Assembly (NCBI GenBank): GCA_947571655.1 | Contig: CANOYR010000003.1 | Span: 3,408 to 67,407, forward strand | From: an uncultured Bacillales bacterium | GTDB taxonomy: Bacteria; Bacillota_I; Bacilli_A; RF39; UBA660 | Length of the DNA stretch: 64,000 bases | Direction: 5' to 3' | Shown: in pieces, positions 5,232-51,976 of the stretch | Position numbering within the stretch: position 1 is the stretch's first letter | Layout of the letters: every line of letters starts with the position of its first letter | The notes under the pieces: model-generated | The model's input: the letters and a program-made list of their open reading frames with translations, nothing else | Databases searched by the model: none | What the model was told of the DNA's origin: nothing | Position numbers and translations under genes: made by a program

Positions 5232-6611
5232 ATGATGGAAAATAAAAAATTGACAATGGAAAAATTGGTGAATGTCTGTAAACAGTATGGATTTATTTTT
5301 CAGGGAAGTGAAATTTATGGAGGATTAGCAAATACTTGGGATTATGGTCCTTTGGGTGCAAGACTTAAAAATAATGTAAAAGATACATGGCGCAAACGAT
5401 TTATTCAAGAAAGACCAAATGCTTATGAAGTGGATGCTGCAATTTTAATGCATCCTAGGGTTTGGGAAGCCAGTGGTCATGTTGCTAGTTTTTCTGATCC
5501 ATTGATTGATTGTAAATCATGTAAGATGCGTCATCGAGCAGATAATTTGATTGATGATTTTGATAAGAATGCCCATGCAGATGGAATGACACAGGAAGAG
5601 ATGGTTTCCTATATTAAGGAACATCAAGTACCTTGTCCAGGATGTGGAAGTAGTGATTATACAGAAATTCGTCAGTTTAATTTGATGTTTGAAACTTATC
5701 GTGGAGTTACTGAGAGTAATAAGAATAAAATTTATTTACGACCAGAAAATGCACAAGGTGAGTATGTTAATTTTTTAAATGTACAGCGTTCTATGAGGTG
5801 TAAATTACCTTTTAGTATTGGTCAAATTGGAAAAGCTTTTAGAAATGAGATTACTCCAGGAAATTTTACTTTTCGCACTATTGAATTTGAACAAATGGAG
5901 TATCAAACTTTTTGTAAAGAGGGGACAGATAGTGAATTATACCGTTATTTTAAAGAGTATGCCAAAAAGTATTTTATGGATTTAGGTCTTCCAGAAGAGA
6001 AGTTGAGATTTCATGATCATGAAAAATTAGCACATTATGCAAAAGAGGCTTGTGATATTGAATATCAATTTAATTTTGGATGGGGAGAAATTAATGGAAC
6101 ACATAATCGTACAGATTATGATTTGGGACGTCATCAGGAGTATTCGAAGACTTCTCAGGAATATCTAGATTCTGAAACGAATGAAAAATATATTCCTTAT
6201 ATTATTGAATCTACAGTTGGATGTGATCGTGCTGTTTTAGCACTTTTGGATCATGCTTATGAAGAAGAGCAACTAGAAGATGGAACCACTCGTGAAGTTA
6301 TGCATTTTCATCCATTTTTAGCACCATATAAAGTAGCAGTACTTCCATTATTAAAAAGATATCATGCAGAAGGGGCAAGTAAGATATATACGCAATTTTC
6401 AAAAGAAATGATGGCAACTTATGATGAGAGTGGAAATATTGGAAAACGATATCGTAGACAAGATGTGATTGGAACTCCTTATTGTGTAACAATCGATGAC
6501 AATACGATTCATGATGGGACAGTTACAATTCGTGATAGAGATAGTATGGAACAAATTACTTTATCTGTGGAGGATGCAATTGTTTATATTAAGGATAAGA
6601 TAAAATTTTAA
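5232..6611 (+). CDS. glyQS: Glycine--tRNA ligase (single-chain, class II)
   Basis: The N-terminus YGFIFQGSEIYGGLANTWDYGPLG and the C-terminal anticodon-binding domain are present. Confidence 0.9.
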   Translation: MMENKKLTMEKLVNVCKQYGFIFQGSEIYGGLANTWDYGPLGARLKNNVKDTWRKRFIQERPNAYEVDAAILMHPRVWEASGHVASFSDPLIDCKSCKMRHRADNLIDDFDKNAHADGMTQEEMVSYIKEHQVPCPGCGSSDYTEIRQFNLMFETYRGVTESNKNKIYLRPENAQGEYVNFLNVQRSMRCKLPFSIGQIGKAFRNEITPGNFTFRTIEFEQMEYQTFCKEGTDSELYRYFKEYAKKYFMDLGLPEEKLRFHDHEKLAHYAKEACDIEYQFNFGWGEINGTHNRTDYDLGRHQEYSKTSQEYLDSETNEKYIPYIIESTVGCDRAVLALLDHAYEEEQLEDGTTREVMHFHPFLAPYKVAVLPLLKRYHAEGASKIYTQFSKEMMATYDESGNIGKRYRRQDVIGTPYCVTIDDNTIHDGTVTIRDRDSMEQITLSVEDAIVYIKDKIKF

Positions 6612-7446: not shown

Positions 7447-7552
7447 CTAATATAGTGTATGAAAATGGGAAATGATTGTTTCCAAAAAGGACAAGTTAAA
7501 AAAATTTTTAAAAATAGTATGAAAATTGCAAAAGTGTGATATACTAAAAGTG

Positions 7553-7733
7553 TCTAAGAAATGCGAAACAGTCACATATAAAACCGACTAATATGACGAT
7601 ACGGGAGTCTTGATCAGTAATCTGTGTTGAATGCCTTTCCTTTTGGTAAAGGAATCCTAAGGGTTACGTATGGACACCCACCTGTAAAAATGCAGGTTTT
7701 ATCGCCGACTGAACCGCTTTCTTGGACTTTTTA
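7553..7733 (+). ncRNA. ssrS: Candidate 6S RNA (SsrS-like)
   Basis: An extended -10 (TGATATACT, 7537-7545) is followed by a ~180-nt noncoding segment. Its 5-prime end (AAGAAAGCG..CAGTC, 7557-7575) pairs with its 3-prime end (GACTG..CGCTTTCTT, 7706-7722) around a bulge, and a U-run follows. It lies directly upstream of a tcdA/yrvM-like gene, as B. subtilis 6S-1 does. Confidence 0.4.
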
Positions 7734-28099: not shown

Positions 28100-28315
28100 G
28101 GAAAGTATATCTGAAAAGCGAAGAAAAAGAGGAGTATGATAAGAGATTCTTTTTTAGAGAACTAGGGGTAGGTGAAACCTAGTAAAGAACCTTATAGGAA
28201 GCTACTTTGGAGTGAAATAATCCGGAGAAATCCGTTATCCAAAATAAGATCTAACAAGGATGGTACCGTGATTATTCGCTCCTGTTTAGGTCTTTTAATT
28301 TATGTAAAAGGAGAA
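28100..28315 (+). promoter_or_regulatory. T-box leader (alanine specifier) preceding the dNMP-kinase-like ORF and alaS
   Basis: AGAGA box at ~28158, a stem-loop CTAGGggtaggtgaaaCCTAG, a GCU-A candidate specifier at ~28204, and an AGTGA element. The T-box core AAGGATGGTACCGTG (28258-28272) carries UGGU, which would pair with the A73 discriminator of tRNA-Ala. A stem and U-run follow. Confidence 0.45.
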
Positions 28316-28320
28316 CCTGT

Positions 28321-28872
28321 ATGAGATTATATTTAATTAGTGGTCGAGCGAGGAATGGAAAAGGTACGATGAGTCAATTAATTCAAGAAGAATATGAGAT
28401 TCGTCATAAGAGAGTATGTTTTATCCAATTAATGAGACCTTTAAAATGGTTATTGCAAGATTATTTTGGTTGGGATGGAAAAGAAGAAACGAAGCCTAGA
28501 GAAAAATTGCAAAAAATGGGGACAGAACTGATTCGTGAACAGTTAGAAATGCCATTATATTTTATCGATCGTTTAACTGAGAATATCAAAATATTGGAAT
28601 CGTTTTATGATGTTTTTTTGGTAACAGATGTTAGGTTACCATTGGAAATTGAAACTTTAAAAAGTCGTTTTCCTGGAGCAGTTAGTATTCATATAAATAG
28701 AATCAATTATAAGAGTGAATTACATGAAAAAGAACAGGTTCATTATACAGAAGTTGCACTGGATGGATATCAGGACTTTGATTATGAAGTGGTGAATGAA
28801 TCTCTTTTAGAACTAAAAAAATCTGTAAAAGAAATAGTAAGTGAGGTAGAGAAGAATGAAAAAGATGAGTAG
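28321..28872 (+). CDS. P-loop deoxynucleoside monophosphate kinase-like protein (T4 gp1-like family)
   Basis: P-loop LISGRARNGKGT. The segments REKLQKMGTELI, LVTDVRLP...AVSIHINR and HYTEV follow the layout of T4 dNMP kinase. The stop overlaps the alaS start. Confidence 0.5.
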   Translation: MRLYLISGRARNGKGTMSQLIQEEYEIRHKRVCFIQLMRPLKWLLQDYFGWDGKEETKPREKLQKMGTELIREQLEMPLYFIDRLTENIKILESFYDVFLVTDVRLPLEIETLKSRFPGAVSIHINRINYKSELHEKEQVHYTEVALDGYQDFDYEVVNESLLELKKSVKEIVSEVEKNEKDE

Positions 28873-31537
28873 TACAGAAATTAGGAATATGTGGTATCGC
28901 TTCTTTGAGAAAAAGGGACATGCCAAAATGCCTAGTGCTTCTTTAATTCCACAAGATGATAAAAGTTTATTATGGATTAATGCAGGAGTTGCGCCATTAA
29001 AAAAATATTTTGATGGTAGCGAAGTTCCAGAAAATAGAAGAATTGTAAATATTCAAAAGTGTATACGAACGAATGATATTGAAAATGTTGGACTTACAGC
29101 AAGACATCAAACATTCTTTGAAATGATGGGGAATTTTTCGATTGGAGATTACTTTAAAGAAGAAGCGATTGAATTTGCTTTTGAGCTTTTGACAGGGAAA
29201 GAATGGTTTGCAATTCCAAAGGAAAAACTTTATTTTACGGTTTATACGGAGGATCAAACAGCCTACGAAAAGTGGTTGAGTTTGGGGGTTTCTCCAGATC
29301 ATGTTATAAAATTAGATGGGAATTTTTGGGAAATTGGAGAGGGTCCTTGTGGACCAGATTCTGAAATTTTCTTTGATCGTGGTGAAAAGTATGATCCAAA
29401 AAAAGATGCGCTTCAAAAATTTAAAAAAGATGAGGATCAGGAGCGATATGTAGAAATTTGGAATAATGTATTTAGTCAGTTTAATTCTAAAGAAAATGTT
29501 CCTCGTGAAAAGTATCAGGAACTTCCTAGCAAAAATATTGATACTGGTGCAGGACTGGAACGTTGGGCATGTATTTTTCAGGGAGTAGATTCTAACTTTG
29601 ATACAGATTTGTTTGTTCCTATTATTAAAAAAATTGAGGAATTAAGTGGTGTTTTATATAATGGGGAATCTTCCTTTAAAATCATTGCGGATCATATTCG
29701 TACGATTACAGTTGCTTTGTCTGATGGAGCTATTTTTGAAAATGTAGGACGTGGATATGTTCTTAGAAGATTACTGAGAAGAAGTGTACGAATGGGAAAG
29801 AAATTAGGGTTAAATGAACCATTTCTTTATAAGCTTGTTCATACAGTTATTCAAATTATGGAAGAATCTTATCCTACATTAAGAGAAACTCAAGGAGATG
29901 TTGAAACTCTTGTTTATGAAGAGGAACAATTGTTTCATAAAACGCTTGCTTCTGGAGAACGTAGGCTTTTAGAATTGATGAAAAAAGCAGGGAAAAAAGT
30001 AATTTCTGGAAGTGAGGTTTTCAAGCTGTATGATACTTATGGATTTCCTTATGAGCTTACTTTAGAATATCTAGAAGAAAAGGGATTTACAACCTCACGT
30101 GAAGAATTTGATCGATGTATGGAGGAACAGAAATTTCTTGCGAAGTCTTCAAGAAAGCAAGAAGCAAATATGAATATTCAAAATGAGGCACTTTTGTCTT
30201 TTCAAGAAGCAAGTGAATTTCAATATCATACTTATACATTGAAGGGAAAAGTAATTGGGTTATTTCATAAAGAAAAACAAGTGGAGACTTTAGAAAAAGA
30301 GGGGTTTGTAATTTTAGATAAAACTTGTTTTTATGCAGAAAGTGGAGGACAGGTTAGTGATACTGGGATGTTGATTAGTAATACTGTGAAGGCAAGAGTA
30401 CTTAGTGTGATGAAGGCTCCAAATGGCCAAAATCTTCATAAGATTAAGATTTTGGATGGAAAAATGAAACTGGGAGACACTTTAAAGGCAACTATTGATG
30501 AAGTACGACGTCATGAAATTGAAGTTAATCATTCTTCTGTTCATCTTCTTCAATATGCCCTTCAGAATATAATTAGTGATACCATTCATCAGGCGGGAAG
30601 TAAGGTAGATGAAGATTCTCTTCGTTTTGATTTTACTTATACTGGAAAATTATTAGATGAAAAAATCATAGAAGTAGAAAAATTTTTAAATCAATACATT
30701 GAAAGAAATATAGAATCTGAAACAGAGATTATGACTTTGGAAGATGCTAAAAAAACAAAAGCTATGGCGTTATTTAGTGAAAAATATAAAAACCAAGTAC
30801 GTGTGGTAACGATTGGAGATTCTAAAGAATTATGTGGAGGAACACATATTAAGAATACTTCAGAAATTAAAAAAATTGCTATTTTTAATGTAGAGTCTAA
30901 AGGAAGTAATATCTATCGAATTGAGGCAGTAACGAATGACAAAATTGAAGATAAATTAATGGAAGTTATTAAGCCATATAATGATGAAAAAATTAAGTTA
31001 TTAATGAAGGCAAGAAACATCATTAGTAAGGCGAAGGCAGAGGGGATTTTTCTAGACTTTGATATTCAAATTGATAATAAAGAACCAGAGAGCTATTGTG
31101 ATCTTGTTTCTGAGAGAAATGAATTAGAATATACTCAAGTAGAAGTAAAAGAGTTAGAAAAGAAGTATCAACAAGAAAAGCAAAAACAGGCTTTAAAAAA
31201 TACAGCTATTTATGAGGATAGAATTGAAGAAATTCATGGGGTAAAAGTGCTTTTAATGCAGTTAGAGGATCAAGATAATACAGTATTGAAAAATATTATT
31301 GATGATCTTTTAAATAATATGGGAAAAGGATTAATTTTGTTTGCTAATTGTAAGGGGGAAAATGTTAATTTTATTGCACGAAGTAACATTGATTGTAGTG
31401 CAGGAGATATTGTAAAAATGGCAAGTCAACTTTCTTCTGGAAATGGTGGTGGTAGTCAGACATTTGCACAAGGTGGCGGCAAAACTACGAAACATATTTC
31501 GGAAATCTTTGATAAAATTAGGGAACAATTTTCATGA
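28856..31537 (+). CDS. alaS: Alanine--tRNA ligase
   Basis: Class II catalytic core (FFEKKGH...LIP...WINAGV), an editing domain with HxxxH...CGGTH, and a C-terminal DHHA1-like domain. Confidence 0.9.
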   Translation: MKKMSSTEIRNMWYRFFEKKGHAKMPSASLIPQDDKSLLWINAGVAPLKKYFDGSEVPENRRIVNIQKCIRTNDIENVGLTARHQTFFEMMGNFSIGDYFKEEAIEFAFELLTGKEWFAIPKEKLYFTVYTEDQTAYEKWLSLGVSPDHVIKLDGNFWEIGEGPCGPDSEIFFDRGEKYDPKKDALQKFKKDEDQERYVEIWNNVFSQFNSKENVPREKYQELPSKNIDTGAGLERWACIFQGVDSNFDTDLFVPIIKKIEELSGVLYNGESSFKIIADHIRTITVALSDGAIFENVGRGYVLRRLLRRSVRMGKKLGLNEPFLYKLVHTVIQIMEESYPTLRETQGDVETLVYEEEQLFHKTLASGERRLLELMKKAGKKVISGSEVFKLYDTYGFPYELTLEYLEEKGFTTSREEFDRCMEEQKFLAKSSRKQEANMNIQNEALLSFQEASEFQYHTYTLKGKVIGLFHKEKQVETLEKEGFVILDKTCFYAESGGQVSDTGMLISNTVKARVLSVMKAPNGQNLHKIKILDGKMKLGDTLKATIDEVRRHEIEVNHSSVHLLQYALQNIISDTIHQAGSKVDEDSLRFDFTYTGKLLDEKIIEVEKFLNQYIERNIESETEIMTLEDAKKTKAMALFSEKYKNQVRVVTIGDSKELCGGTHIKNTSEIKKIAIFNVESKGSNIYRIEAVTNDKIEDKLMEVIKPYNDEKIKLLMKARNIISKAKAEGIFLDFDIQIDNKEPESYCDLVSERNELEYTQVEVKELEKKYQQEKQKQALKNTAIYEDRIEEIHGVKVLLMQLEDQDNTVLKNIIDDLLNNMGKGLILFANCKGENVNFIARSNIDCSAGDIVKMASQLSSGNGGGSQTFAQGGGKTTKHISEIFDKIREQFS

Positions 31538-44080: not shown

Positions 44081-45325
44081 ATGTATTGTGGTGAGTGTGG
44101 AACTAAGCTAAAGAAAAACGACATTTTTTGTGGAAATTGTGGTACTAAAGTCGAGCAGACAACAGAGGCCAAAGAATCTTCTTCTAATTCCTCGTCTAAG
44201 CAAGTAGTACCAAAAAAGCCAATGTCAAAGTCTAAAAAAATACTATTTGCGATATGTGCAGTTGTAGTGGTTGTATTAGTTTTAGGATATCAGTTTCTTG
44301 ATAAAAAATATGGTCCTAAGGGAGTTGCCGCTGAATATATAGAGGCTCTTATTCATCAAGACGCAAATGCTTTATATGATTATTTACATTTGGAAGGAGA
44401 TACTACTTTTACCAGTAGAGAGCAATTTGAAGAAATTGTTCGAGATTCAGAATCTAATTCATCTATTCAAAATTATAAAATTGGAGAAGTAGTGTATGGA
44501 GATGGGAAACTTAGTGCACGAGTAAAGATTCATTTCACTTTTAAGGATACACAAATGGAAACGACAGAAACAATTGATTTAATTAAGACAAAAAAGAAAA
44601 AATATTTGTTTTTTGACGTTTGGGAATTGAATCAAAATTTTGATTCTGTTTTAGTAAAAGATTATCAGGTAAAAGTTCCAAAAAATTCAGAAGTATCCAT
44701 TAACAAAATTTTGTTAGATAAGAAATATTTTGATAAAAAGGATTCAACTACAGAGTGGGATGTTTATAAAATTCCTCAGATTTTTAAATCAGAAGTAGAC
44801 ATAATATCAACAATCGCTGGTTTTGAGGTAGAGGAAAAAGTGGTGCCATCTAGTTTTGGATATACAGCATCCTTAGAACTTGATTCTTTATCAAAAGAGG
44901 ATAAGGAAAAACTAGAGAAGCAATTAATGACAGATATGACAACCATTTATCAAAATCTAATCGAAGGTAAGACTTGGGATAGTATTTCAGATTCTTATAA
45001 TTTTGAAGGGGCAGATTTAGAGGAATTGGAGGAAACATATCAATCCTTATATGAAGATGTTGTAAATGATGAGTATAGAAAATTGAAAAAATTTGAAATT
45101 ACTTCTATGAAAGTTAATTCTTTAACATCAGATGATGATGGAGAGATTCGAATTGGAGTAAAATTGAGTTACAACTATACAATTGACTATAAAAAATATG
45201 ATGATTCCATTGAGGAGAGAACAGGAAAGAATAGTTCAAATTCAATATTGATTTACCAATTTTCAGGTAATAAGCTTAGATTAATTGATGCGTCTTATCT
45301 AGTATCATATTTCTCAGCCTATTAA
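44081..45325 (+). CDS. Zinc-ribbon membrane protein with large extracytoplasmic domain
   Basis: N-terminal MYCGECGTKLKKNDIFCGNCG zinc ribbon, one TM helix (ILFAICAVVVVVLVLGY), then about 340 aa of extracellular domain. Confidence 0.5.
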   Translation: MYCGECGTKLKKNDIFCGNCGTKVEQTTEAKESSSNSSSKQVVPKKPMSKSKKILFAICAVVVVVLVLGYQFLDKKYGPKGVAAEYIEALIHQDANALYDYLHLEGDTTFTSREQFEEIVRDSESNSSIQNYKIGEVVYGDGKLSARVKIHFTFKDTQMETTETIDLIKTKKKKYLFFDVWELNQNFDSVLVKDYQVKVPKNSEVSINKILLDKKYFDKKDSTTEWDVYKIPQIFKSEVDIISTIAGFEVEEKVVPSSFGYTASLELDSLSKEDKEKLEKQLMTDMTTIYQNLIEGKTWDSISDSYNFEGADLEELEETYQSLYEDVVNDEYRKLKKFEITSMKVNSLTSDDDGEIRIGVKLSYNYTIDYKKYDDSIEERTGKNSSNSILIYQFSGNKLRLIDASYLVSYFSAY

Positions 45326-45351
45326 AATAAAATAAAAAAGGAGTGAAAAAA

Positions 45352-46125
45352 ATGGCAAAATTTTGCACAAAGTGTGGAAAAAAGTTAGAAGAAGGAGAAG
45401 TATGTAATTGTACAAAAAAAACTTCTAAAAAAACGGTAGAAAAAGAGGAGAAAGCAGTTAAGGAGGAAGTAAAAGCAGTAGAATCTTTACCAACTAGTTC
45501 TGCGAATGACTATATCAATAAATATATTGAAGTTGTGAAAGGAATTTTTACACATCCAATAGATACAATGAAAAAGTATGGAACGAGTGAGCATTTTAAT
45601 TTGGGATTAATTATGATTGCTGTGAATTGTTTCATTACAGTATTATTTGTTTATTTAGGATTTAAGGAATTAATTTCAGTAATGACAGAATCTCGTGAAT
45701 TAAGTTCTGTTTTTGGACTTGGATATGGTTTTGGTTATGGAGATATATCTCTTCCAATAGAAGTTTTAATTAAAATCTTTATAATGATGGCTGGAGGATT
45801 TGCTACCACTGCAGCAATGCTTTATGTAATTGCAGGACCTGTACTTAAAACAAAGGCAGATATTAAGCAATTATTCTCATTGGTTGGTGTTTGTTCTGTA
45901 CTTACTACTGTTACAACGATTGTGGCTACTTTATGTATGTATATTTCAGAAAAAATAATGTTCATTGTATTATTGGTATCTGGTGTATTGTATTTGACAC
46001 ACTTATATCATGGATTTCAAAAATCAACAGAAGTGGAAGAAAACAAGATGGGGTATACCTATGTTGTGGCAATTTCAGTTGCAACATTTGTAGTAGTATA
46101 TTTATTACCAAAAATTTTATTCTAA
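45352..46125 (+). CDS. Zinc-ribbon membrane protein (paralogous architecture to upstream gene)
   Basis: N-terminal FCTKCGKKLEEGEVCNC, a K/E-rich linker, then about 5 TM helices. Confidence 0.5.
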   Translation: MAKFCTKCGKKLEEGEVCNCTKKTSKKTVEKEEKAVKEEVKAVESLPTSSANDYINKYIEVVKGIFTHPIDTMKKYGTSEHFNLGLIMIAVNCFITVLFVYLGFKELISVMTESRELSSVFGLGYGFGYGDISLPIEVLIKIFIMMAGGFATTAAMLYVIAGPVLKTKADIKQLFSLVGVCSVLTTVTTIVATLCMYISEKIMFIVLLVSGVLYLTHLYHGFQKSTEVEENKMGYTYVVAISVATFVVVYLLPKILF

Positions 46126-46269
46126 AAGGTGAATAGGAAGCTATGGATGATAGTTTCCTTTTTAATTTAGAGAATAGGTTTTGTTAAAACTTATGAAATA
46201 AAAAAGTTTTCTTGAATTTTTGTTAAAAGTGTTGTAAACTAATCATAGATTCTTAGAAAGAAGAGTAAC

Positions 46270-46460
46270 GAAATTTCTTTTTTTAGAGAGGATATGGTTG
46301 GTGAAAATATCTATTAGAAATGAGTGAAGACACTTTCTATTAAAAGAAACGTAATTCTGCGTTAAAGAAGATAAGCATAAGTAATTATGGAAATAAGGTG
46401 GCACCACGAATTGATATTCGTCCTTTGTAGTGTTACCTTTTTCTTTTTAATCAAGAAAGG
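46270..46460 (+). promoter_or_regulatory. T-box leader of the hisS-aspS operon
   Basis: AGAGA at 46286, GGTGAAA and AGTGAAGACAC elements, and a GACAC specifier region at ~46329-46333. The T-box core AATAAGGTGGCACCACG is at 46391-46407. A terminator stem AAGGTGGCAC/GTGTTACCTT is followed by a U-run. Confidence 0.6.
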
Positions 46461-46469
46461 AAGAAGAAT

Positions 46470-47831
46470 ATGATAATAAAACAAAAAGGATGTCATGATA
46501 TTTATGGATTAGAAGCAAAAAAATGGAATTATGTATCTCAAGTAATTGATGCTGTTTGTGAAAGATATCATTATGATTTTATTCGTACTCCAATTTTTGA
46601 AGCAAGTGAACTATTTCATCGTAGTATTGGGGAAGAAACAGATGTCGTTCGTAAAGAGATGTATGATTTTAAGGATAAGGGAAATCGTGACATTACTCTA
46701 AGACCAGAGGGAACAGCAGGAGTAATCCGAAGCTATATTGAAAATAAAATGTATGGTGATTCTGTACAACCTGTGAAGCTATATTATAATGGAACGATGT
46801 ATCGATATGAGCGTCCACAATCTGGAAGAGATCGGGAACTTACTCAATTTGGAGTTGAAGTTTTAGGAAGTGATGATCCAATGATTGATGCGGAGGTTAT
46901 TTCTCTTGCTGTTAATATTTATAAAATTTTGGGGTTAAAAGGAATTAAAGTAAATATTAATTCTTTGGGAGATCAAGAGTCGAGAGATAATTATCGAAAG
47001 GTCTTGATTGATTACTTTACTCCATATGTGAATGAATTGTGTGAAGATTGTAAGATCCGCTTAGAAAAAAATCCACTTCGTATCTTAGATTGTAAGATAG
47101 ATTGTCAATTAGAAATTATGAAGAATGCTCCTATTATAGTAGATTATTTAAATGAAGAGAGTAAGAAGCGATTTTTGGCTGTTCAAAAGTATTTAGATTT
47201 ATTAGATATTGAATATGAAGTTAATCCATCGATTGTCCGAGGATTAGATTATTATAATCATACGGTATTTGAAATTGAGGCAGATATTGAAGATTTTGGT
47301 AGTCAAAATGTGTTAGGTGGTGGTGGAAGGTATAATCATTTGGTATCGCAACTTGGAGGTCCAGAAACTCCTGGAATTGGGTTTGCGATGGGAATTGGAC
47401 GCCTTATTCTTGCTTTAGAAAAAGAAGAAATTCAATTGCCAATAGAGGAAGGAATTGATGTATTCGTAATGTATGTATCTGATACAGAGAAAGAATATGC
47501 GGTTACTCTAGTTCAAGAACTTCGTATGAATGGATTTAAAGCAGAAACAGAATATATGAATCGAGGTTTAAAAGGACAGTTTAAGCAAGCAGACCGTTTG
47601 AAAAGTAAATTTTTAATTTTGTTAAATGATGAAGAATTAAAGGAAAATCAAATAAAAATAAAAAATAATCAGACTAAGGAAGAGAATTTTATAGAGCTTG
47701 ATTATATTCTATATTACTTAGATGAGCAACTTTCCTCTTTTGAAGAGAGTGATTGTAATTGTGGACATCATCATGAAGAGGGACATCATTGTCATTGCCA
47801 ACATAAAGATGATGGAGAAATTAATTTTTAA
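46470..47831 (+). CDS. hisS: Histidine--tRNA ligase with His/Cys-rich C-terminal tail
   Basis: Class II aaRS motifs and anticodon-binding domain. The additional C-terminal tail reads ...ESDCNCGHHHEEGHHCHCQHKDDGEINF. Confidence 0.9.
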   Translation: MIIKQKGCHDIYGLEAKKWNYVSQVIDAVCERYHYDFIRTPIFEASELFHRSIGEETDVVRKEMYDFKDKGNRDITLRPEGTAGVIRSYIENKMYGDSVQPVKLYYNGTMYRYERPQSGRDRELTQFGVEVLGSDDPMIDAEVISLAVNIYKILGLKGIKVNINSLGDQESRDNYRKVLIDYFTPYVNELCEDCKIRLEKNPLRILDCKIDCQLEIMKNAPIIVDYLNEESKKRFLAVQKYLDLLDIEYEVNPSIVRGLDYYNHTVFEIEADIEDFGSQNVLGGGGRYNHLVSQLGGPETPGIGFAMGIGRLILALEKEEIQLPIEEGIDVFVMYVSDTEKEYAVTLVQELRMNGFKAETEYMNRGLKGQFKQADRLKSKFLILLNDEELKENQIKIKNNQTKEENFIELDYILYYLDEQLSSFEESDCNCGHHHEEGHHCHCQHKDDGEINF

Positions 47832-47848: not shown

Positions 47849-49600
47849 ATGAAGAAATATAACAATGTACAGTTTAATATAAAAAATGTAGGAGAATCTG
47901 TAGTTTTAGAAGGTTGGGTAGCGAAAAAAAGAAATCTTGGGGGATTAATCTTTTTGGATTTAAGGGATCGTTCAGGGATTATACAGTTGGTGGTACGACC
48001 AGGGCAAAAAGATTATGAATTAGCAAGTGGTTTGAAAACGGAATCAGTAATTAGAGCGAAGGGAAAAATTCTAGAAAGAGAAAGTAAAAATTTAAAAATT
48101 CCAACAGGAGAGATTGAGGTAATTGTCGATGAATTAGAAATTTTTAGTATCGCACATGATCTTCCTTTTGAAATTAGTGATGATACAACGGCATTAGAAG
48201 ATACTAGGCTTAAATATCGTTATTTGGATTTACGAAGAACAAACTTAAAAAAGAATTTAATTGCACGAAGTCAATTAATGCATATTATTCGGAATTTCTT
48301 TTATGAAGAGGGCTTTATAGAAGTAGAAACTCCTATTCTTTGTAAATCTACACCAGAAGGAGCTAGGGATTATCTGGTTCCATCGCGAATAAATCATGGT
48401 AGTTTTTATGCACTTCCTCAGTCTCCTCAAATTTTTAAACAATTATTAATGATTGGTGGAATGGAAAAATACTTTCAAATTGCAAAGTGTTTTCGTGATG
48501 AAGATTTAAGATCAGATCGTCAACCAGAGTTTACACAAGTTGATTTGGAAATGAGTTTTGTAGAGGAGGAAGATGTAATTTCTACAACAGAAAGATTGCT
48601 TGCTAAAGTGTTTAAAGAAATGAAGGGAATTCAATTAACTCTTCCACTTTCTAGAATGAAATATGATGATGCAATTAGAGATTATGGTACTGATCAACCA
48701 GATTTACGTTATGATATGAAAATTCAAAGCTTAAATGAATTATTTAAGAAAACAGAATTTTTAGTTTTCCAAAATATTTTAAAATCTGGAGGAGAAATTG
48801 GATGTATTCTTGTAAAGAATAGTGCAGATAAGTATTCTAGAAAAGAAATTGACAAGTTAGCAGATTTTATGAAGACATATCAGGTAAGTGGAATTTCTTG
48901 GTTAAAGTATATTGATTCTGATTTTTCTGGAAGTATTCGCAAGGTGTTATCGGATGAAGAGTTGAGTGGATTAAAGAATCAATTAAATATTGAAGAAAAT
49001 GATATGCTTTTTATTGTTGCTGATAAGTATGGAATAACAAAAACTTCTCTCGGTGCTTTACGAATTCGATTGGCTCATGAATTGGGTCTTGTGAAAAGAG
49101 GAGATTATCAATTTACGTGGATTGTTGATTTTCCATCTTTTGAGTATAGTGAAGAAGAAAGTCGGTATGTTGCTTGTCATCATCCATTTACAGCACCAAA
49201 AGATACCGATATTGATAAATTGTTAAATGATAAATCAAATTGTTATTCTAAGGCTTATGATATTGTCATTAATGGTTATGAAGCTGGAGGAGGAAGTATC
49301 CGTATTCATCAGGCAGAGGTTCAAAAAAAGATGTTTGAGGCTTTGGGTTTTACTTTAGAGCAAGCAAAGGAAAAATTTGGCTTTTTTCTAGAAGCATTTG
49401 ATTATGGTACTCCTCCCCATGGTGGTCTTGCTTTAGGATTGGATCGATTAACAATGCTTTTAGTAGAAACAGAAAATATTCGAGATGTAATTGCTTTTCC
49501 AAAGACTACTAGTGCTTCTTGCTTGATGAGTGAGTGCCCAAATAGGGTGGATCAAAAGCAATTAGATGAGTTGGAAATATCAGTAGTAGAAAAAGACTAA
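47849..49600 (+). CDS. aspS: Aspartate--tRNA ligase
   Basis: N-terminal OB anticodon-binding domain, class II motifs (FRDEDLR, GGGSIRIH, GLDRL) and a GAD insertion. Confidence 0.9.
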   Translation: MKKYNNVQFNIKNVGESVVLEGWVAKKRNLGGLIFLDLRDRSGIIQLVVRPGQKDYELASGLKTESVIRAKGKILERESKNLKIPTGEIEVIVDELEIFSIAHDLPFEISDDTTALEDTRLKYRYLDLRRTNLKKNLIARSQLMHIIRNFFYEEGFIEVETPILCKSTPEGARDYLVPSRINHGSFYALPQSPQIFKQLLMIGGMEKYFQIAKCFRDEDLRSDRQPEFTQVDLEMSFVEEEDVISTTERLLAKVFKEMKGIQLTLPLSRMKYDDAIRDYGTDQPDLRYDMKIQSLNELFKKTEFLVFQNILKSGGEIGCILVKNSADKYSRKEIDKLADFMKTYQVSGISWLKYIDSDFSGSIRKVLSDEELSGLKNQLNIEENDMLFIVADKYGITKTSLGALRIRLAHELGLVKRGDYQFTWIVDFPSFEYSEEESRYVACHHPFTAPKDTDIDKLLNDKSNCYSKAYDIVINGYEAGGGSIRIHQAEVQKKMFEALGFTLEQAKEKFGFFLEAFDYGTPPHGGLALGLDRLTMLLVETENIRDVIAFPKTTSASCLMSECPNRVDQKQLDELEISVVEKD

Positions 49601-49650: not shown

Positions 49651-51228
49651 TGTCAATTTTTTTTAAAAATGTCAGTAAAATCGTTTTGAGAAAATGTCAG
49701 TTTGAAGTATAGTCATAGTAAGATCAAAAGATCAATTTTTGATGTGAGAAGATTATACTTCTTTTCTTTGTTAGTCAAGAATCAAGATAAACGACTGAAG
49801 TCGTCCTTGACTAACAACCATGATTTAGACAATAGTACATATTACTGTGAGAAGTAATAGGAGGTAACCCTTTTCTCCAAGGGGGATTTATAGATTTATG
49901 AGTTTTAGAAGAGTTAATATTGGAACTAGATTTCGTTATTTTGATATTTCTTTTTAACGAGGTATTAAAGTCTTTAACGGTATGTAAGTCATACCAAGTA
50001 TCATTAAATAAAATATGTTCAGTACCATCAAGAAATGTATATACTCTAACAGATTTGCTAGTTGGGAGATATACTTTCTCATTATTTTTTAATATTACAT
50101 GATAGACTTTATTGTATTTTAAGTAGGAATTATGAAATACCTTATGCTCACTCCAAACAGCTAATTGTTTGTTATAATCAAAATCATTGTCTAGACATAT
50201 GAAATGATTTTTGGTATTATCAATAGGAAGAGCGAATCTAGCGTTGTATTTGGGGATAAAGACATCGTTTAAGTATTGATTTGCCTCTTCAATTGTATGT
50301 ATGTGTTTCTTTTTGAGCTCTTTATATAAACGATCTTGAAAAGTTCTCCATAGTCTTTCAATCCTGCCTTTAGCACGTGGATTGATAGAAATAATATCTG
50401 TTCCAATATGTTCTAACATATTAGCGAAACGGGTATTTTTTATTTGTTTACCTTGAAGTTCGTCTTCTAAGGTTAACTCCTTTTTAGGAGATTTAAAAAC
50501 GGTTCTATAATCGGTATATAGATATTCAGGAATGCCATAGTTTTGAATTGTTTGTTTCATAATCATTTGATATCCGAAAATAGTTTCTTCTTTATCAAAG
50601 AAACAAGAGGTTACAGTACCAGTGGAATCATCGATTCCACCATGAAGATAGTAATATTTATCATCACCATAGAACCATTGGTGTTTCGATGCATCAACTT
50701 GAATTAATTCTCCAGCATATTCTTTTCTTTCTCTAGGAGGATAAGATTTTTTATGTTTTTTATATTTATGAGGAGATTCAATACCATTAGAAGTAAGAAG
50801 GTTATAAATAAAAGAATCAGAAACTATAATTTTGTGATAATCTTCTAAAATGTCATTAAAATGGTAGAAATTCCAACCTTCATATTCTTTATGATACAGA
50901 TCTATAATTTTATTTTTTAGTTCTTCTGAATATCCACGATGAGTGGATCTATTTCTATTTTTATGAGAAATACTTTTAATGCCATCTTTTAAGTAAGCCT
51001 TTTTCTTTCTATATATTTGTCTTTTAGATAGACCAGTTAATCTTGATACATCTGATATATTAATTTCGTTGGCAAGTAATTTTATTAAAATATTATTAAT
51101 TCTTTCTTCTTTCATATTTAATGTAATCCTTTCATTCATTTTGATTGCTCCCTTCCTAAGGAGCATATTATACCACTTACTGCCATTTTTAAAAAATGAT
51201 ATATACTGACATTATCACAAAATGATTA
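49651..51228 (-). mobile_element. Insertion sequence (~1.58 kb), DDE transposase, ISNCY/IS1202-like
   Basis: A single transposase ORF. The imperfect terminal inverted repeats start TGTCAATTTTTTTTAAAAATGTCAGTA (left) and TGTAATCATTTTGTGATAATGTCAGTA (reverse complement of the right end). An 18-bp direct repeat flanks it. It sits between the aspS terminator and the tRNA promoter. Confidence 0.5.
49811..51139 (-). CDS. DDE (rve integrase-core) transposase
   Basis: N-terminal HTH (ISDVSRLTGLSKRQIYR). DDE core: IQVDASKH...HGGIDDSTG...LYTDYRTVF...E. The start is MNERITL, after the RBS ggaagggag. Confidence 0.7.
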   Translation of the reverse strand: MNERITLNMKEERINNILIKLLANEINISDVSRLTGLSKRQIYRKKKAYLKDGIKSISHKNRNRSTHRGYSEELKNKIIDLYHKEYEGWNFYHFNDILEDYHKIIVSDSFIYNLLTSNGIESPHKYKKHKKSYPPRERKEYAGELIQVDASKHQWFYGDDKYYYLHGGIDDSTGTVTSCFFDKEETIFGYQMIMKQTIQNYGIPEYLYTDYRTVFKSPKKELTLEDELQGKQIKNTRFANMLEHIGTDIISINPRAKGRIERLWRTFQDRLYKELKKKHIHTIEEANQYLNDVFIPKYNARFALPIDNTKNHFICLDNDFDYNKQLAVWSEHKVFHNSYLKYNKVYHVILKNNEKVYLPTSKSVRVYTFLDGTEHILFNDTWYDLHTVKDFNTSLKRNIKITKSSSNINSSKTHKSINPPWRKGLPPITSHSNMYYCLNHGC

Positions 51229-51806: not shown

Positions 51807-51883
51807 GGACCCTTAGCTCAGTTGGTTAGAGCATTCGGCTCATAACCGAACGGTCGATGGTTCGAGTCCATCAGGGTCCACCA
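51807..51883 (+). tRNA. tRNA-Met (anticodon CAT; could alternatively be tRNA-Ile2/k2C)
   Basis: 77-nt cloverleaf with 7-bp acceptor GGACCCT/AGGGTCC, D-arm GCTC-AGTTGGTTA-GAGC, anticodon loop CTCATAA, T-arm GGTTCGAGTCC, and encoded CCA. Confidence 0.85.
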
Positions 51884-51891
51884 CAAAATAT

Positions 51892-51976
51892 GCGGGTATG
51901 GCGGAATTGGCAGACGCACTAGACTTAGGATCTAGCGCCGCAAGGCTTGCAGGTTCAACTCCTGTTACCCGCACCA
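51892..51976 (+). tRNA. tRNA-Leu (anticodon TAG), class II with long variable arm
   Basis: GCGGGTATGGCGGAATTGGCAGACGC...anticodon loop CTTAGGA...variable arm...GGTTCAACTCCTGTTACCCGCACCA. Confidence 0.85.

What the first reader, a model, noticed from the sequence alone, without database searches (positions are those of the whole stretch)
47730..47831. Histidyl-tRNA synthetase carries a His/Cys-rich C-terminal extension
Beyond the anticodon-binding domain the protein ends ...SFEESDCNCGHHHEEGHHCHCQHKDDGEINF. These ~30 residues hold 7 His and 4 Cys, which is a likely metal-binding tail (Ni/Zn/Co). It sits on the enzyme that consumes histidine, which suggests metal-responsive regulation or a metallochaperone-like function.
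Basis: seen in the sequence. Interest (0 to 1): 0.5.

Follow-up and report, generated by a model that had tools for sequence, protein, structure and literature searches.

The report
Metal-binding-type tail on histidyl-tRNA synthetase
The enzyme that loads histidine onto tRNA here ends in a real, conserved, acidic cysteine/histidine-rich tail that looks like a small metallothionein; nearly all relatives from uncultured gut Bacilli carry one and no paper describing it was found, but metal binding has not been tested.

Summary
hisS (46470..47831, +) encodes a canonical 453-aa HisRS whose last 31 residues hold 7 His, 4 Cys and 8 Asp/Glu. This is the most Cys/His-rich stretch in any frame of the window.

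It is not a frameshift. The identical protein is encoded on at least 8 contigs from separate runs. Of 170 distinct tails from 200 close homologues (65-100 % identity, uncultured gut Bacilli/'Tenericutes' MAGs), 156 have at least 6 Cys+His.

The tails are hypervariable (17-132 aa) and grow by in-frame tandem duplication. All are net negative, and AlphaFold2 predicts the window's tail as disordered.

Cys spacing is strongly non-random. CxC is enriched 2.5-fold; CxxC and CC are depleted 4-5-fold. The metallothionein beta-domain spacing occurs in 32/170 tails against 0.3 expected. Cys is the best-conserved residue, and tail dN/dS is about 0.2.

A second, more distant HisRS group (Erysipelotrichales/Mollicutes MAGs) carries tails in another style (HECCCGHHH, HHHH). 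Tail-less close relatives exist, and three other aaRS in the window have no tail.

Best reading: a metallothionein/HspA-like metal-buffering tail on an essential, T-box-controlled enzyme. Metal binding, the metal's identity and the link to histidine are inferred, not shown. I found no prior description.

The parts
46249..46428 (+). T-box leader controlling the hisS-aspS operon
   Evidence: Rfam RF00230 scores 93.1 bits against a gathering score of 93. The specifier region reads GAA-GAC-AC.
46470..47735 (+). Canonical HisRS body (residues 1-422): class II catalytic core, HGTP anticodon-binding domain, and a last helix at about 410-427
   Evidence: TIGR00442 scores 481 bits. PF13393 covers residues 7-311 and PF03129 covers 330-417. 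PDB 1QE0 matches at E=6.5e-142 over residues 5-417.
47736..47828 (+). C-terminal extension (residues 423-453, SFEESDCNCGHHHEEGHHCHCQHKDDGEINF): acidic, Cys/His-rich, predicted disordered
   Evidence: Sequence. pLDDT is below 50 for residues 428-453. Homologous tails are seen.
47754..47804 (+). Putative ligand core CNCGHHHEEGHHCHCQH (residues 429-445): two CxC pairs flanking a His/Glu run
   Evidence: Translation. C441 is nearly invariant in alignment A1. CxC and HxH are enriched in the family.
47808..47828 (+). Acidic tip ending in a hydrophobic residue, DDGEINF-COOH (residues 447-453)
   Evidence: Translation. Of 170 related tails, 27 end in [IVLMF]xF and 31 end in F, although F is only 1.1 % of tail residues.
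47849..49600 (+). aspS (AspRS), second gene of the operon; no tail. Its GAGGAG ribosome-binding site lies in the 17-nt gap after the hisS stop codon.
   Evidence: The same hisS-aspS order is seen in related loci.

Best explanation
The 31-residue extension is a translated, intrinsically disordered, strongly acidic Cys/His-rich tail on an otherwise canonical HisRS. It is the local version of a hypervariable, metallothionein-like tail carried by the HisRS of a large group of uncultured small-genome gut Bacilli (RF39/RFN20-type MAGs). Erysipelotrichales/Mollicutes-like MAGs carry a tail in a different motif style.

Most likely the Cys thiolates and His imidazoles, helped by Asp/Glu, bind borderline or soft divalent metal ions. 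Zn(II) is my first choice; Ni, Co, Fe(II) or Cu(I) are not excluded. I estimate roughly 2-3 ions per tail, so 4-6 per HisRS dimer. The tail would then act as a cytosolic metal buffer or sequestration site riding on an essential, constitutively needed, T-box-controlled enzyme, as the His/Cys tail of H. pylori GroES (HspA) does for nickel.

The tail is not needed for aminoacylation. Capacity is tuned in evolution by in-frame duplication or loss of CxC modules. A plausible reason for the host enzyme is that HisRS consumes histidine, a major low-molecular-weight metal ligand, so a tail could catch metal freed from His-metal complexes.

Shown here: reality, conservation, selection, ligand-type spacing, predicted disorder, and dispensability (tail-less close relatives exist). 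Inferred: metal binding, which metal, the buffering role, and the histidine link.
For: **Real and conserved.**
- The identical protein is on at least 8 contigs, with identical tail DNA.
- Nearly all of the 120 best database homologues and nearly all of 80 genome loci carry a tail.
- Among 170 distinct tails, 155 have at least 4 Cys and 156 have at least 6 Cys+His. Composition is C 20 %, D 17 %, E 16 %, H 11.5 %, G 10.6 %.

**Ligand-type order rather than mere composition.**
- CxC: 619 observed vs 247+-12 in shuffles.
- HxH: 206 vs 78.
- CxxC: 51 vs 242. CC: 63 vs 253.
- CxC-x5-CxC-x3-CxC occurs in 32/170 tails against 0.3 expected.
- The recurring module CGC[QL][DE]GxxCxCGxxCxC occurs in 15 tails against 0 expected.

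**Protein-level selection.**
- Cys is conserved at 80 % of aligned sites, against 51 % for residues other than Cys and His. One third of conserved Cys sites use a different codon.
- dN/dS is 0.21 in the tail and 0.05 in the body.

**Capacity-like evolution.** Length ranges from 17 to 132 aa. Arrays are in frame: 18 nt x 20.8 copies in L072 (41 Cys) and 66 nt x 2.8 copies in L054.

**Dispensable for catalysis.** The sister cluster P0121 (421 aa, 67 % identity) and most other HisRS have no tail.

**Recurrence on HisRS.** In a second group, 39-48 % identical to the window protein, 103/120 members have at least 6 Cys+His in the last 45 residues.

**Not a genome-wide habit in what could be sampled.** No other ORF in the 64-kb window has such a segment; that includes GlyRS-like, AlaRS and AspRS. 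Nor does any ORF in 80 x about 8 kb of flanking sequence.

**Disorder.** pLDDT is below 50 for residues 428-453.

**Precedents.**
- The HspA tail (8 His, 4 Cys) binds 2 Ni per monomer. Its deletion is viable but lowers cellular Ni content and Ni tolerance (PMC5116745, PMC3856676).
- A histidine-consuming enzyme releasing Zn from His-Zn complexes is documented for HutH in A. baumannii (PMC8456098).
Against: - No metal-binding measurement exists, and the metal is unknown.
- Eight of 170 tails have no Cys. Three of those have neither Cys nor His and are simply acidic, so negative charge rather than metal ligation may be the one universal property.
- No tail matches any Pfam metallothionein model or any PDB chain.
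- A few ions per HisRS dimer is a small store unless the enzyme is abundant.
- I could not scan whole genomes, so exclusivity to HisRS is unproven.
- The conserved acidic-I-x-F tip in the window's subclade suggests docking to a protein surface, which a pure metal sponge does not need.
- The Cys-conservation figure is inflated by aligning compositionally biased sequences. The dN/dS figure rests on 11 selected, non-independent pairs.
Confidence: 0.55

Rival explanations
1. Regulatory tail. The acidic tail, emerging one helix after the anticodon-contacting loop, folds back on the basic tRNA-binding surface, or docks through its acidic-I-x-F tip, and competes with tRNA-His. Metal loading or Cys oxidation changes its charge or shape and so tunes aminoacylation to metal or redox status.
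For: - Every tail is net negative: median -12 in 170 tails and -9 in 104 tails of the second group, with none at or above zero.
- Tails lacking Cys remain acidic.
- The invariant K398-E405 loop lies just upstream. It aligns by position with the region of T. thermophilus HisRS where K397/K399 contact the anticodon (PMC4357726).
- The terminal [IV]xF motif is conserved in the window's subclade.
- SecA offers a precedent: its C-terminal tail (flexible linker plus small metal-binding domain) modulates its activity (PMC6620043, title and abstract only).
Against: - Length varies from 17 to 132 aa and Cys count from 0 to 41. That is hard to reconcile with a calibrated switch.
- AF2 gives no confident docking; pLDDT is about 30.
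- Anticodon contacts contribute only weakly to HisRS catalysis (PMC4357726), so competition there would have a modest effect.
- Most tails lack the tip motif.
Confidence: 0.2
2. Functionless low-complexity growth. Replication slippage at the 3' end of hisS created and keeps remodelling a tolerated junk tail.
For: - In-frame tandem arrays occur.
- Length and sequence turn over extremely fast.
- Tail-less relatives are evidently viable.
Against: - The tail is retained in nearly all members across 65-100 % core identity, and in a second distant group.
- CxxC and CC are avoided while CxC is enriched. Slippage alone does not predict this across unrelated tail sequences.
- Cys is conserved despite synonymous codon changes, and dN/dS is about 0.2.
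- Cys is costly and reactive, so it is unlikely to drift to 20 %.
Confidence: 0.1
3. Iron-sulfur cluster or redox-sensor tail. The Cys bind an Fe-S cluster or form reversible disulfides that report oxygen or redox state in a strict anaerobe.
For: - Cys content is high and the hosts are anaerobic gut organisms carrying feo iron uptake and [FeFe] hydrogenases (PMC7301438).
- The HspA tail Cys can form disulfides (PMC5116745).
Against: - CxxC, the usual Fe-S and redox motif, is depleted 5-fold.
- Cys number is highly variable.
- No ferredoxin-type pattern appears, and no Pfam hit was found.
Confidence: 0.07
4. Nucleotide- or translation-level device. The run of His, Cys and Asp codons at the 3' end of hisS stalls ribosomes when charged tRNAs are scarce and thereby tunes translation of aspS, 17 nt downstream.
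For: - Seven His codons lie within 31 codons, directly upstream of the aspS ribosome-binding site.
- The operon responds to tRNA charging through a T-box.
Against: - His content varies from 0 to 10 and is often low, while Cys dominates.
- The amino acid is conserved while codons change.
- The last His codon is 24 nt upstream of the stop codon, too far for a stalled ribosome to cover the aspS site (inference).
- The T-box already provides the sensing.
Confidence: 0.03
5. Assembly or sequencing frameshift creating an artificial tail.
For: None found.
Against: - The identical 453-aa protein is on at least 8 contigs from separate runs, with identical tail DNA.
- Alignable tails occur in homologues at 84-87 % identity and in about 200 others.
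- The +1 frame gives only a 46-aa hydrophobic ORF unrelated to HisRS.
Confidence: 0.01

Closest known systems
His/Cys-rich C-terminal extension ('domain B') of Helicobacter pylori GroES/HspA
   Same: It is a short tail appended to the C-terminus of an essential, conserved housekeeping protein. Composition is almost the same: 8 His and 4 Cys there, 7 His and 4 Cys here. It is absent from most orthologues, and deleting it is viable. It binds 2 Ni per monomer and serves Ni storage and detoxification (PMC5116745, PMC3856676).
   Different: The host protein differs, and the similarity is analogy, not homology. HspA's tail is confined to gastric Helicobacter and fixed in length, whereas the HisRS tail spans a broad lineage and is hypervariable. 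The family here is Cys/Asp/Glu-dominated with CxC arrays, while HspA uses CC pairs and HxH motifs. HspA is tied to NikR and to Ni enzymes; no such link is known here.
Metallothioneins (mammalian beta-domain, Neurospora Cu-MT, bacterial SmtA/MymT)
   Same: Cys is about 20 % of residues, CxC motifs dominate and aromatic residues are few. The apo form is predicted to be disordered. The exact spacing CxC-x5-CxC-x3-CxC occurs in 32/170 tails; from memory, this is the spacing of the mammalian MT beta-domain N-terminus and of Neurospora MT. Growth is by module duplication.
   Different: These tails are fused to an enzyme rather than free-standing. They are very acidic (34 % Asp/Glu) and His-rich. There is no significant match to Pfam metallothionein models (best PF00131, E=4.3). 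The window's own copy has only 4 Cys and lacks the full spacing.
Other His-rich metal-binding tails on housekeeping proteins (E. coli SlyD, mycobacterial GroEL1)
   Same: These are disordered C-terminal ligand-rich tails on chaperones that bind Ni or Cu and are proposed to act in metal homeostasis (PMC3856676, PMC10170517).
   Different: They are His-dominated with few or no CxC arrays, they are not on translation enzymes, and their tails are not known to expand by tandem repeats.
SecA C-terminal tail (flexible linker plus small metal-binding domain)
   Same: The extreme C-terminal metal-binding element sits on a flexible linker of a housekeeping enzyme and modulates its activity (PMC6620043).
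   Different: From memory, the SecA domain is a compact, conserved Zn/Fe-binding fold with a fixed CxCx8C[HC] motif. The HisRS tail has no fixed motif or length.
Acidic C-terminal tip of bacterial SSB (DDDIPF; from memory)
   Same: A disordered acidic tail ends in acidic-I-x-F-COOH. Compare DDGEINF here and DDIEF or DSISF in relatives.
   Different: The resemblance covers only 4-5 residues. The motif is present in only about 16-18 % of tails. No partner is known and nothing was tested.

Membership tests
Bacterial class IIa histidyl-tRNA synthetase (hisS, TIGR00442) | Full-length match above the curated cutoff, with a class II core and an HGTP anticodon-binding domain | tested here: met
   TIGR00442 scores 481 bits against a cutoff of 287. 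PF13393, PF00587 and PF03129 all match. PDB 1QE0 matches at E=6.5e-142.
Bacterial class IIa histidyl-tRNA synthetase (hisS, TIGR00442) | Genomic context typical of Bacillota: T-box leader followed by the hisS-aspS operon | tested here: met
   The T-box lies at 46249-46428. aspS starts 17 nt after the hisS stop codon.
Metallothionein (Pfam PF00131/PF02069-type families) | Significant sequence match to a metallothionein model | tested here: not met
   The window tail and seven long tails gave no hit better than PF00131 at E=4.3 and 8 bits, against a cutoff of 23.
Metallothionein (Pfam PF00131/PF02069-type families) | High Cys content arranged as CxC, CxxC or CC clusters, with the canonical beta-domain spacing | tested here: inconclusive
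   Across the family, Cys is 20 %, CxC is enriched 2.5-fold and CxC-x5-CxC-x3-CxC occurs in 32/170 tails. However, CxxC and CC are depleted. The window tail has only 4 Cys (13 %), arranged as CxC-x9-CxC.
Metallothionein (Pfam PF00131/PF02069-type families) | Small free-standing protein | tested here: not met
   The segment is fused to the C-terminus of a 422-aa enzyme.
Metallothionein (Pfam PF00131/PF02069-type families) | Forms metal-thiolate clusters | not testable with these tools
   This needs ICP-MS, UV charge-transfer bands or NMR on recombinant protein.
HspA-type His/Cys-rich metal-storage tail (a functional class, not a homologous family) | C-terminal extension of a conserved housekeeping fold, absent from most orthologues and dispensable for the core function | tested here: met
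   The extension lies beyond residue 420. The tail-less sister cluster P0121 and most of the 150 representatives lack it.
HspA-type His/Cys-rich metal-storage tail (a functional class, not a homologous family) | His plus Cys ligand density comparable to HspA (8 His and 4 Cys in about 27 aa) | tested here: met
   The tail has 7 His and 4 Cys in 31 aa, compared with the figures in PMC5116745.
HspA-type His/Cys-rich metal-storage tail (a functional class, not a homologous family) | Binds Ni (or another metal) and affects cellular metal content or tolerance | not testable with these tools
   This is a biochemical and genetic test. The literature reports [FeFe] rather than [NiFe] hydrogenases in RF39/RFN20 (PMC7301438), so a Ni client is not evident.
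Zinc ribbon / zinc finger / Fe-S cluster motif | Paired CxxC (or CxxCxxC) ligand motifs in a compact fold | tested here: not met
   CxxC occurs 51 times against 242+-13 in shuffles. The window tail has none. AF2 predicts no fold.
SSB-like acidic C-terminal tip | Extreme C-terminus D-D-[IL]-P-F that docks on partner proteins | tested here: inconclusive
   The window tail ends DDGEINF, and 27/170 tails end in [IVLMF]xF. There is no Pro and no partner information.

The most novel reading that the evidence does not exclude
The tail makes HisRS a node linking the histidine pool to metal homeostasis. HisRS strips histidine from cytosolic His-metal complexes and the tail captures the released ion.

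Because hisS is induced through its T-box when histidine runs low, tail-borne buffering capacity rises exactly when the free-histidine metal buffer shrinks. Metal loading of the acidic tail, together with docking of its I-x-F tip, may in turn gate tRNA-His binding.

This would be a previously unrecognised moonlighting function of an aminoacyl-tRNA synthetase, and it would be widespread in uncultured gut Bacilli.
Probability: 0.12. Interest if true: 0.75.

Novelty: new variant of a known kind. Interest (0 to 1): 0.5.

Why it matters
Cys/His-rich metal-binding tails on housekeeping proteins are known (HspA, SlyD, GroEL1). I found no report of one on an aminoacyl-tRNA synthetase. I also found no report of a metallothionein-like, duplication-driven tail that is the rule across a whole major lineage of uncultured gut bacteria.

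If it binds metal, it would be a cheap metal-buffering device for small genomes, which may lack dedicated storage proteins (not checked here). It would also tie histidine use to metal handling, and it would be a naturally variable 'capacity dial' for studying how metallothionein-type sequences evolve.

It also matters practically. These tails will behave like built-in His/Cys tags during purification, and truncated gene calls or domain-only annotation will miss them.

Tried and rejected
- **Tail-only database search.** The profile of 23 tails then returned only one 43-aa hit at E=0.8 among 1182 word candidates. Low-complexity scoring defeats this approach, so whether non-HisRS proteins carry such tails is not answered.
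- **Metagenome DNA pattern.** The pattern for (CxCGxx)2CxC with TGT codons matched (TG)n microsatellites. None of 123 ORFs was HisRS-like and none was informative. The pattern was badly designed.
- **Pfam and PDB searches with the tails** gave only chance-level hits (SCRL, conotoxins, PF00131 at E=4.3).
- **Organism names for the second tail-bearing group**. Most entries are unnamed. The only names are 'Mollicutes', 'Erysipelotrichales', 'Erysipelotrichaceae' and 'Bacilli bacterium', all.
- **Literature searches.** Four searches for a HisRS Cys/His tail or a metallothionein-like tail on an aaRS, plus a broader search for His-rich proteins, found nothing relevant. The library lacks most subscription journals.
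- **Crude regex extraction of T-box specifiers across loci** was too noisy to use beyond noting GACAC and GACAT.
- **Hypotheses rejected:** frameshift artefact, zinc-ribbon or Fe-S motif, and a His-codon stalling device. Reasons are given under the rival explanations.
Full report
**1.
The ORF at 46470..47831 (+) encodes a 453-aa protein ending ...YYLDEQLSSFEESDCNCGHHHEEGHHCHCQHKDDGEINF. The last 31 residues (423-453, nt 47736-47828) contain 7 His, 4 Cys, 8 Asp/Glu and one Lys. The window has 29 % G+C. Its long ORFs contain only 1.2 % Cys and 1.8 % His, so 11 Cys/His in 31 residues has a binomial probability near 8e-10. This stretch ranks first among all six-frame ORFs of at least 80 aa.

The body is an ordinary HisRS:
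- TIGR00442 scores 481 bits against a cutoff of 287.
- The Pfam catalytic core covers residues 7-311 and the HGTP anticodon-binding domain covers 330-417.
- Solved bacterial HisRS stop where the domain stops. S. aureus 1QE0 has 420 aa and aligns to residues 5-417 at E=6.5e-142.

Residues from about 421 to 453 are therefore a genuine extension.

**2. Genomic context.**
A T-box leader lies at 46249-46428. aspS (47849-49600) starts 17 nt after the hisS stop codon. This is the usual Bacillota hisS-aspS operon. Upstream are two membrane proteins with zinc-ribbon-like N-termini, one of them with a Yip1 domain. Downstream are a transposase-like ORF and two tRNAs.

**3. It is not an artefact.**
The identical 453-aa protein is encoded on at least 8 contigs from separate sequencing runs. 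In the three I fetched, the tail DNA is identical to the window. Homologues at 84-87 % identity have alignable tails, for example ...CDCGCHHEEGHECHCHD..SISF. The alternative +1 frame gives only a 46-aa hydrophobic ORF.

**4. The tail is the rule in a whole lineage.**
- The 120 best database homologues (68-100 % identity, 435-488 aa) nearly all end in a Cys/His/Asp/Glu-rich tail after the conserved YYLDE helix.
- A scan of one genome per species returned 80 loci (65-86 % identity), and 79 of them also carry a tail (one HisRS ORF was missed by my motif filter). All are uncultured MAGs from gut, rumen or faeces.
- Their labels are Bacilli, Tenericutes, Mycoplasmatota, Ca. Scybalousia, Ca. Faecimonas (NCBI: Bacilli incertae sedis), Clostridium sp. 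CAG:710 and Mycoplasma sp. CAG:877. One is a circular 1.31-Mb genome.
- From my memory of GTDB these are RF39/RFN20-type lineages; I did not test this. A phylogenomic paper places RF39, RFN20 and Erysipelotrichales as neighbouring small-genome clades next to Mycoplasmatales. It reports that they lack several amino-acid pathways and have [FeFe] hydrogenases (PMC7301438).

**5. Anatomy of the family (170 distinct tails from 200 proteins).**
- Median length is 36 aa after the YYLDE anchor, with a range of 17-132 aa.
- Composition is C 20 %, D 17 %, E 16 %, H 11.5 % and G 10.6 %.
- 155 tails have at least 4 Cys and 156 have at least 6 Cys+His.
- Eight have no Cys: five of these retain His plus acidic residues, and three are simply acidic.
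- Every tail is net negative, with a median charge of -12.
- With 4 Cys and 7 His, the window's tail is Cys-poor and His-rich for its clade.
- Tails grow by in-frame tandem duplication. L072 has 18 nt x 20.8 copies, giving (CSCGDD)n with 41 Cys in 132 aa. L054 has 66 nt x 2.8 copies of a 22-aa module.

**6. The order of residues is not random.**
Each tail was compared with shuffles of itself:

| Motif | Observed | Shuffled expectation |
|---|---|---|
| CxC | 619 | 247+-12 |
| HxH | 206 | 78 |
| CxxC | 51 | 242 |
| CC | 63 | 253 |
| CxC-x5-CxC-x3-CxC (tails) | 32/170 | 0.3 |
| CGC[QL][DE]GxxCxCGxxCxC (tails) | 15 | 0 |

From memory, CxC-x5-CxC-x3-CxC is the cysteine spacing at the start of the mammalian metallothionein beta-domain and of Neurospora Cu-metallothionein. 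The depletion of CxxC argues against zinc-ribbon, thioredoxin-like or Fe-S motifs.

**7. Selection acts on the protein.**
- In 342 alignable tail pairs, Cys is conserved at 80 % of sites. His is conserved at 62 % and all other residues at 51 %. One third of conserved Cys sites use the other codon. The caveat is that aligning biased sequences favours Cys-Cys matches.
- In 11 equal-length pairs, dN/dS is 0.21 in the tail against 0.05 in the preceding 120 codons. These pairs are few, selected and not independent.

**8. Beyond the clade.**
A search of 1.84 billion cluster representatives shows that most HisRS are 415-430 aa and have no tail. That includes the representative of the window's own 50 % cluster, P0121 (421 aa, 67 % identity), which ends ...LIDYLDMNI. 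A few more distant representatives do carry Cys/His tails: P0129, P0132, P0148 and P0268, at 39-47 % identity.

Searching with P0268 revealed a second large group, 43-61 % identical to P0268. The few named members are 'Mollicutes', 'Erysipelotrichales', 'Erysipelotrichaceae' and 'Bacilli bacterium'. In this group 103 of 120 members have at least 6 Cys+His in the last 45 residues. The style differs: HHCCH, repeated HECCCGHHH, or just EEEHHHH(H)EE, with CC and CCC common.

In a rough neighbour-joining tree of core domains, the tail-bearing groups are separated by tail-less representatives. This means either several gains or an old gain followed by losses. The tree is too crude to decide.

**9. 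Specificity to HisRS.**
Within what I could sample, only HisRS carries such a segment. Sampled sequence comprises:
- The 64-kb window, which also encodes a GlyRS-like enzyme with the same type of C-terminal domain, AlaRS and AspRS. None of these has a tail.
- About 8 kb around hisS in each of 80 genomes.

Whole genomes could not be scanned, so exclusivity is not established.

**10. Structure.**
AlphaFold2 with a 28-sequence alignment gives a confident anticodon-binding domain ending in a helix at residues 410-427. pLDDT is about 30 for residues 428-453, which indicates an intrinsically disordered tail in the metal-free state.

The tail leaves the domain one helix after the invariant loop K398-E405. 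By position in the sequence alignment, that loop corresponds to the region of T. thermophilus HisRS where K397/K399 contact the anticodon (PMC4357726).

**11. What it most likely does.**
Four properties point to a metallothionein/HspA-type metal-binding tail:
- thiolate, imidazole and carboxylate ligands at very high density;
- metallothionein-type spacing;
- disorder;
- module-wise expansion on a dispensable appendage.

The variable length suggests capacity (buffering or sequestration) rather than a calibrated switch. By ligand count the window's tail could hold about 2-3 ions. I favour Zn(II). Ni or Co would suit His-rich versions like this one, but the lineage is reported to use [FeFe] hydrogenases (PMC7301438), so no Ni client is evident.

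Why HisRS? Two inferred reasons:
- Histidine is a major small-molecule metal ligand. An enzyme that consumes it releases the metal, as shown for HutH and His-Zn in A. baumannii (PMC8456098, citing Nairn et al. 2016).
- hisS is T-box-induced when histidine is scarce. Tail capacity would therefore rise when the free-histidine buffer falls.

None of this has been measured.

**12. Rivals.**
- **Regulation of tRNA binding by an acidic tail (0.2).** This remains credible, because negative charge is the only universal property and the window's subclade conserves an acidic-I-x-F-COOH tip. Of 170 tails, 27 end in [IVLMF]xF, and F is the last residue in 31, although F is only 1.1 % of tail residues.
- **Neutral slippage (0.1).** It is contradicted by retention, spacing and selection.
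- **Fe-S cluster or redox sensing (0.07).** It is contradicted by CxxC depletion.
- **Codon-level stalling (0.03).** It is contradicted by variable His content and by amino-acid conservation despite codon changes.
- **Frameshift (0.01 or less).** It is refuted.

**13. Comparison with what is known.**
The closest functional analogue is the His/Cys-rich C-terminal extension of H. pylori GroES (HspA). That tail has 8 His and 4 Cys and binds 2 Ni per monomer. Its deletion is viable, but it lowers Ni content and Ni tolerance and impairs hydrogenase maturation (PMC5116745, PMC3856676). SlyD, mycobacterial GroEL1 (PMC10170517) and the SecA tail (PMC6620043) are further analogues.

By sequence the tails are not members of any metallothionein family, and no PDB chain resembles them. 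Five literature searches found no description of a Cys/His-rich tail on HisRS or on any other aaRS. The searchable library omits most subscription journals.

**14. Verdict.**
This is a real, conserved, undescribed feature. I class it as a new variant of a known kind, namely metal-ligand tails on housekeeping proteins. It is notable for its host enzyme, its metallothionein-like order, its hypervariability and its breadth in uncultured gut Bacilli. Its function is inferred only.

Noticed in passing
window 47808-47828; related tails in P0002-P0114 and L001-L004: The tail ends DDGEINF. Of 170 related tails, 27 end in [IVLMF]xF and 31 end in F (DDIEF, DSISF, DDINF), although F is only 1.1 % of tail residues. 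This acidic tip with a terminal hydrophobic residue recalls the SSB C-terminus and suggests docking to a protein pocket.
   Followed up: partly
window 46249-46428 (specifier near 46330-46340): In the Rfam alignment, the specifier region of the hisS-aspS T-box reads GAA-GAC-AC. GAC (Asp) is in the canonical register, and a His codon (CAC) overlaps it two bases later. Other loci show GACAC or GACAT. One leader may therefore read either tRNA for a two-gene operon.
   Followed up: partly
L072 5273-5646; L054 1505-1692: These are extreme tails built from in-frame tandem repeats. L072 has 18 nt x 20.8 copies, encoding (CSCGDD)n with 41 Cys in 132 aa. L054 has 66 nt x 2.8 copies of the module CECGCQDGKECTCGEECHCDES.
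   Followed up: yes
P0268, P0330-P0447 (second HisRS group); L081 2434-3789: A distant HisRS group (Erysipelotrichales/Mollicutes MAGs, in a relA-hisS-aspS context) has tails of a different style: HHCCH, repeated HECCCGHHH, or only EEEHHHHEEN. CC and CCC motifs are common there, whereas they are avoided in the window's clade.
   Followed up: partly
window 28112-28286 and 28856-31537; 5232-6611: A second T-box leader precedes a small DNMK-like ORF and AlaRS. A GlyRS-like class IIa enzyme with the same HGTP anticodon domain lies at 5232-6611. Neither synthetase has a Cys/His tail, so they serve as internal controls.
   Followed up: yes
window 44081-45325 and 45343-46125: Two adjacent membrane proteins directly upstream of the hisS leader both begin with a zinc-ribbon-like CxxC...CxxC N-terminus (MYCGECG...CGNCG; KFCTKCG...). 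For the first, Pfam Zn_Ribbon_1 gave a whole-protein match only (26 bits against a cutoff of 25; no matched stretch passed on its own). The second has a Yip1 domain. Any link to the tail is unknown.
   Followed up: no
window 49811-51166 (-), 51807-51973: A 451-aa transposase/integrase-like ORF, with only a weak HTH_29 match, sits between aspS and two tRNA genes. It may be an insertion sequence.
   Followed up: no
window 7548-7732: A 6S RNA gene is present (Rfam RF00013, 62.7 bits).
   Followed up: no
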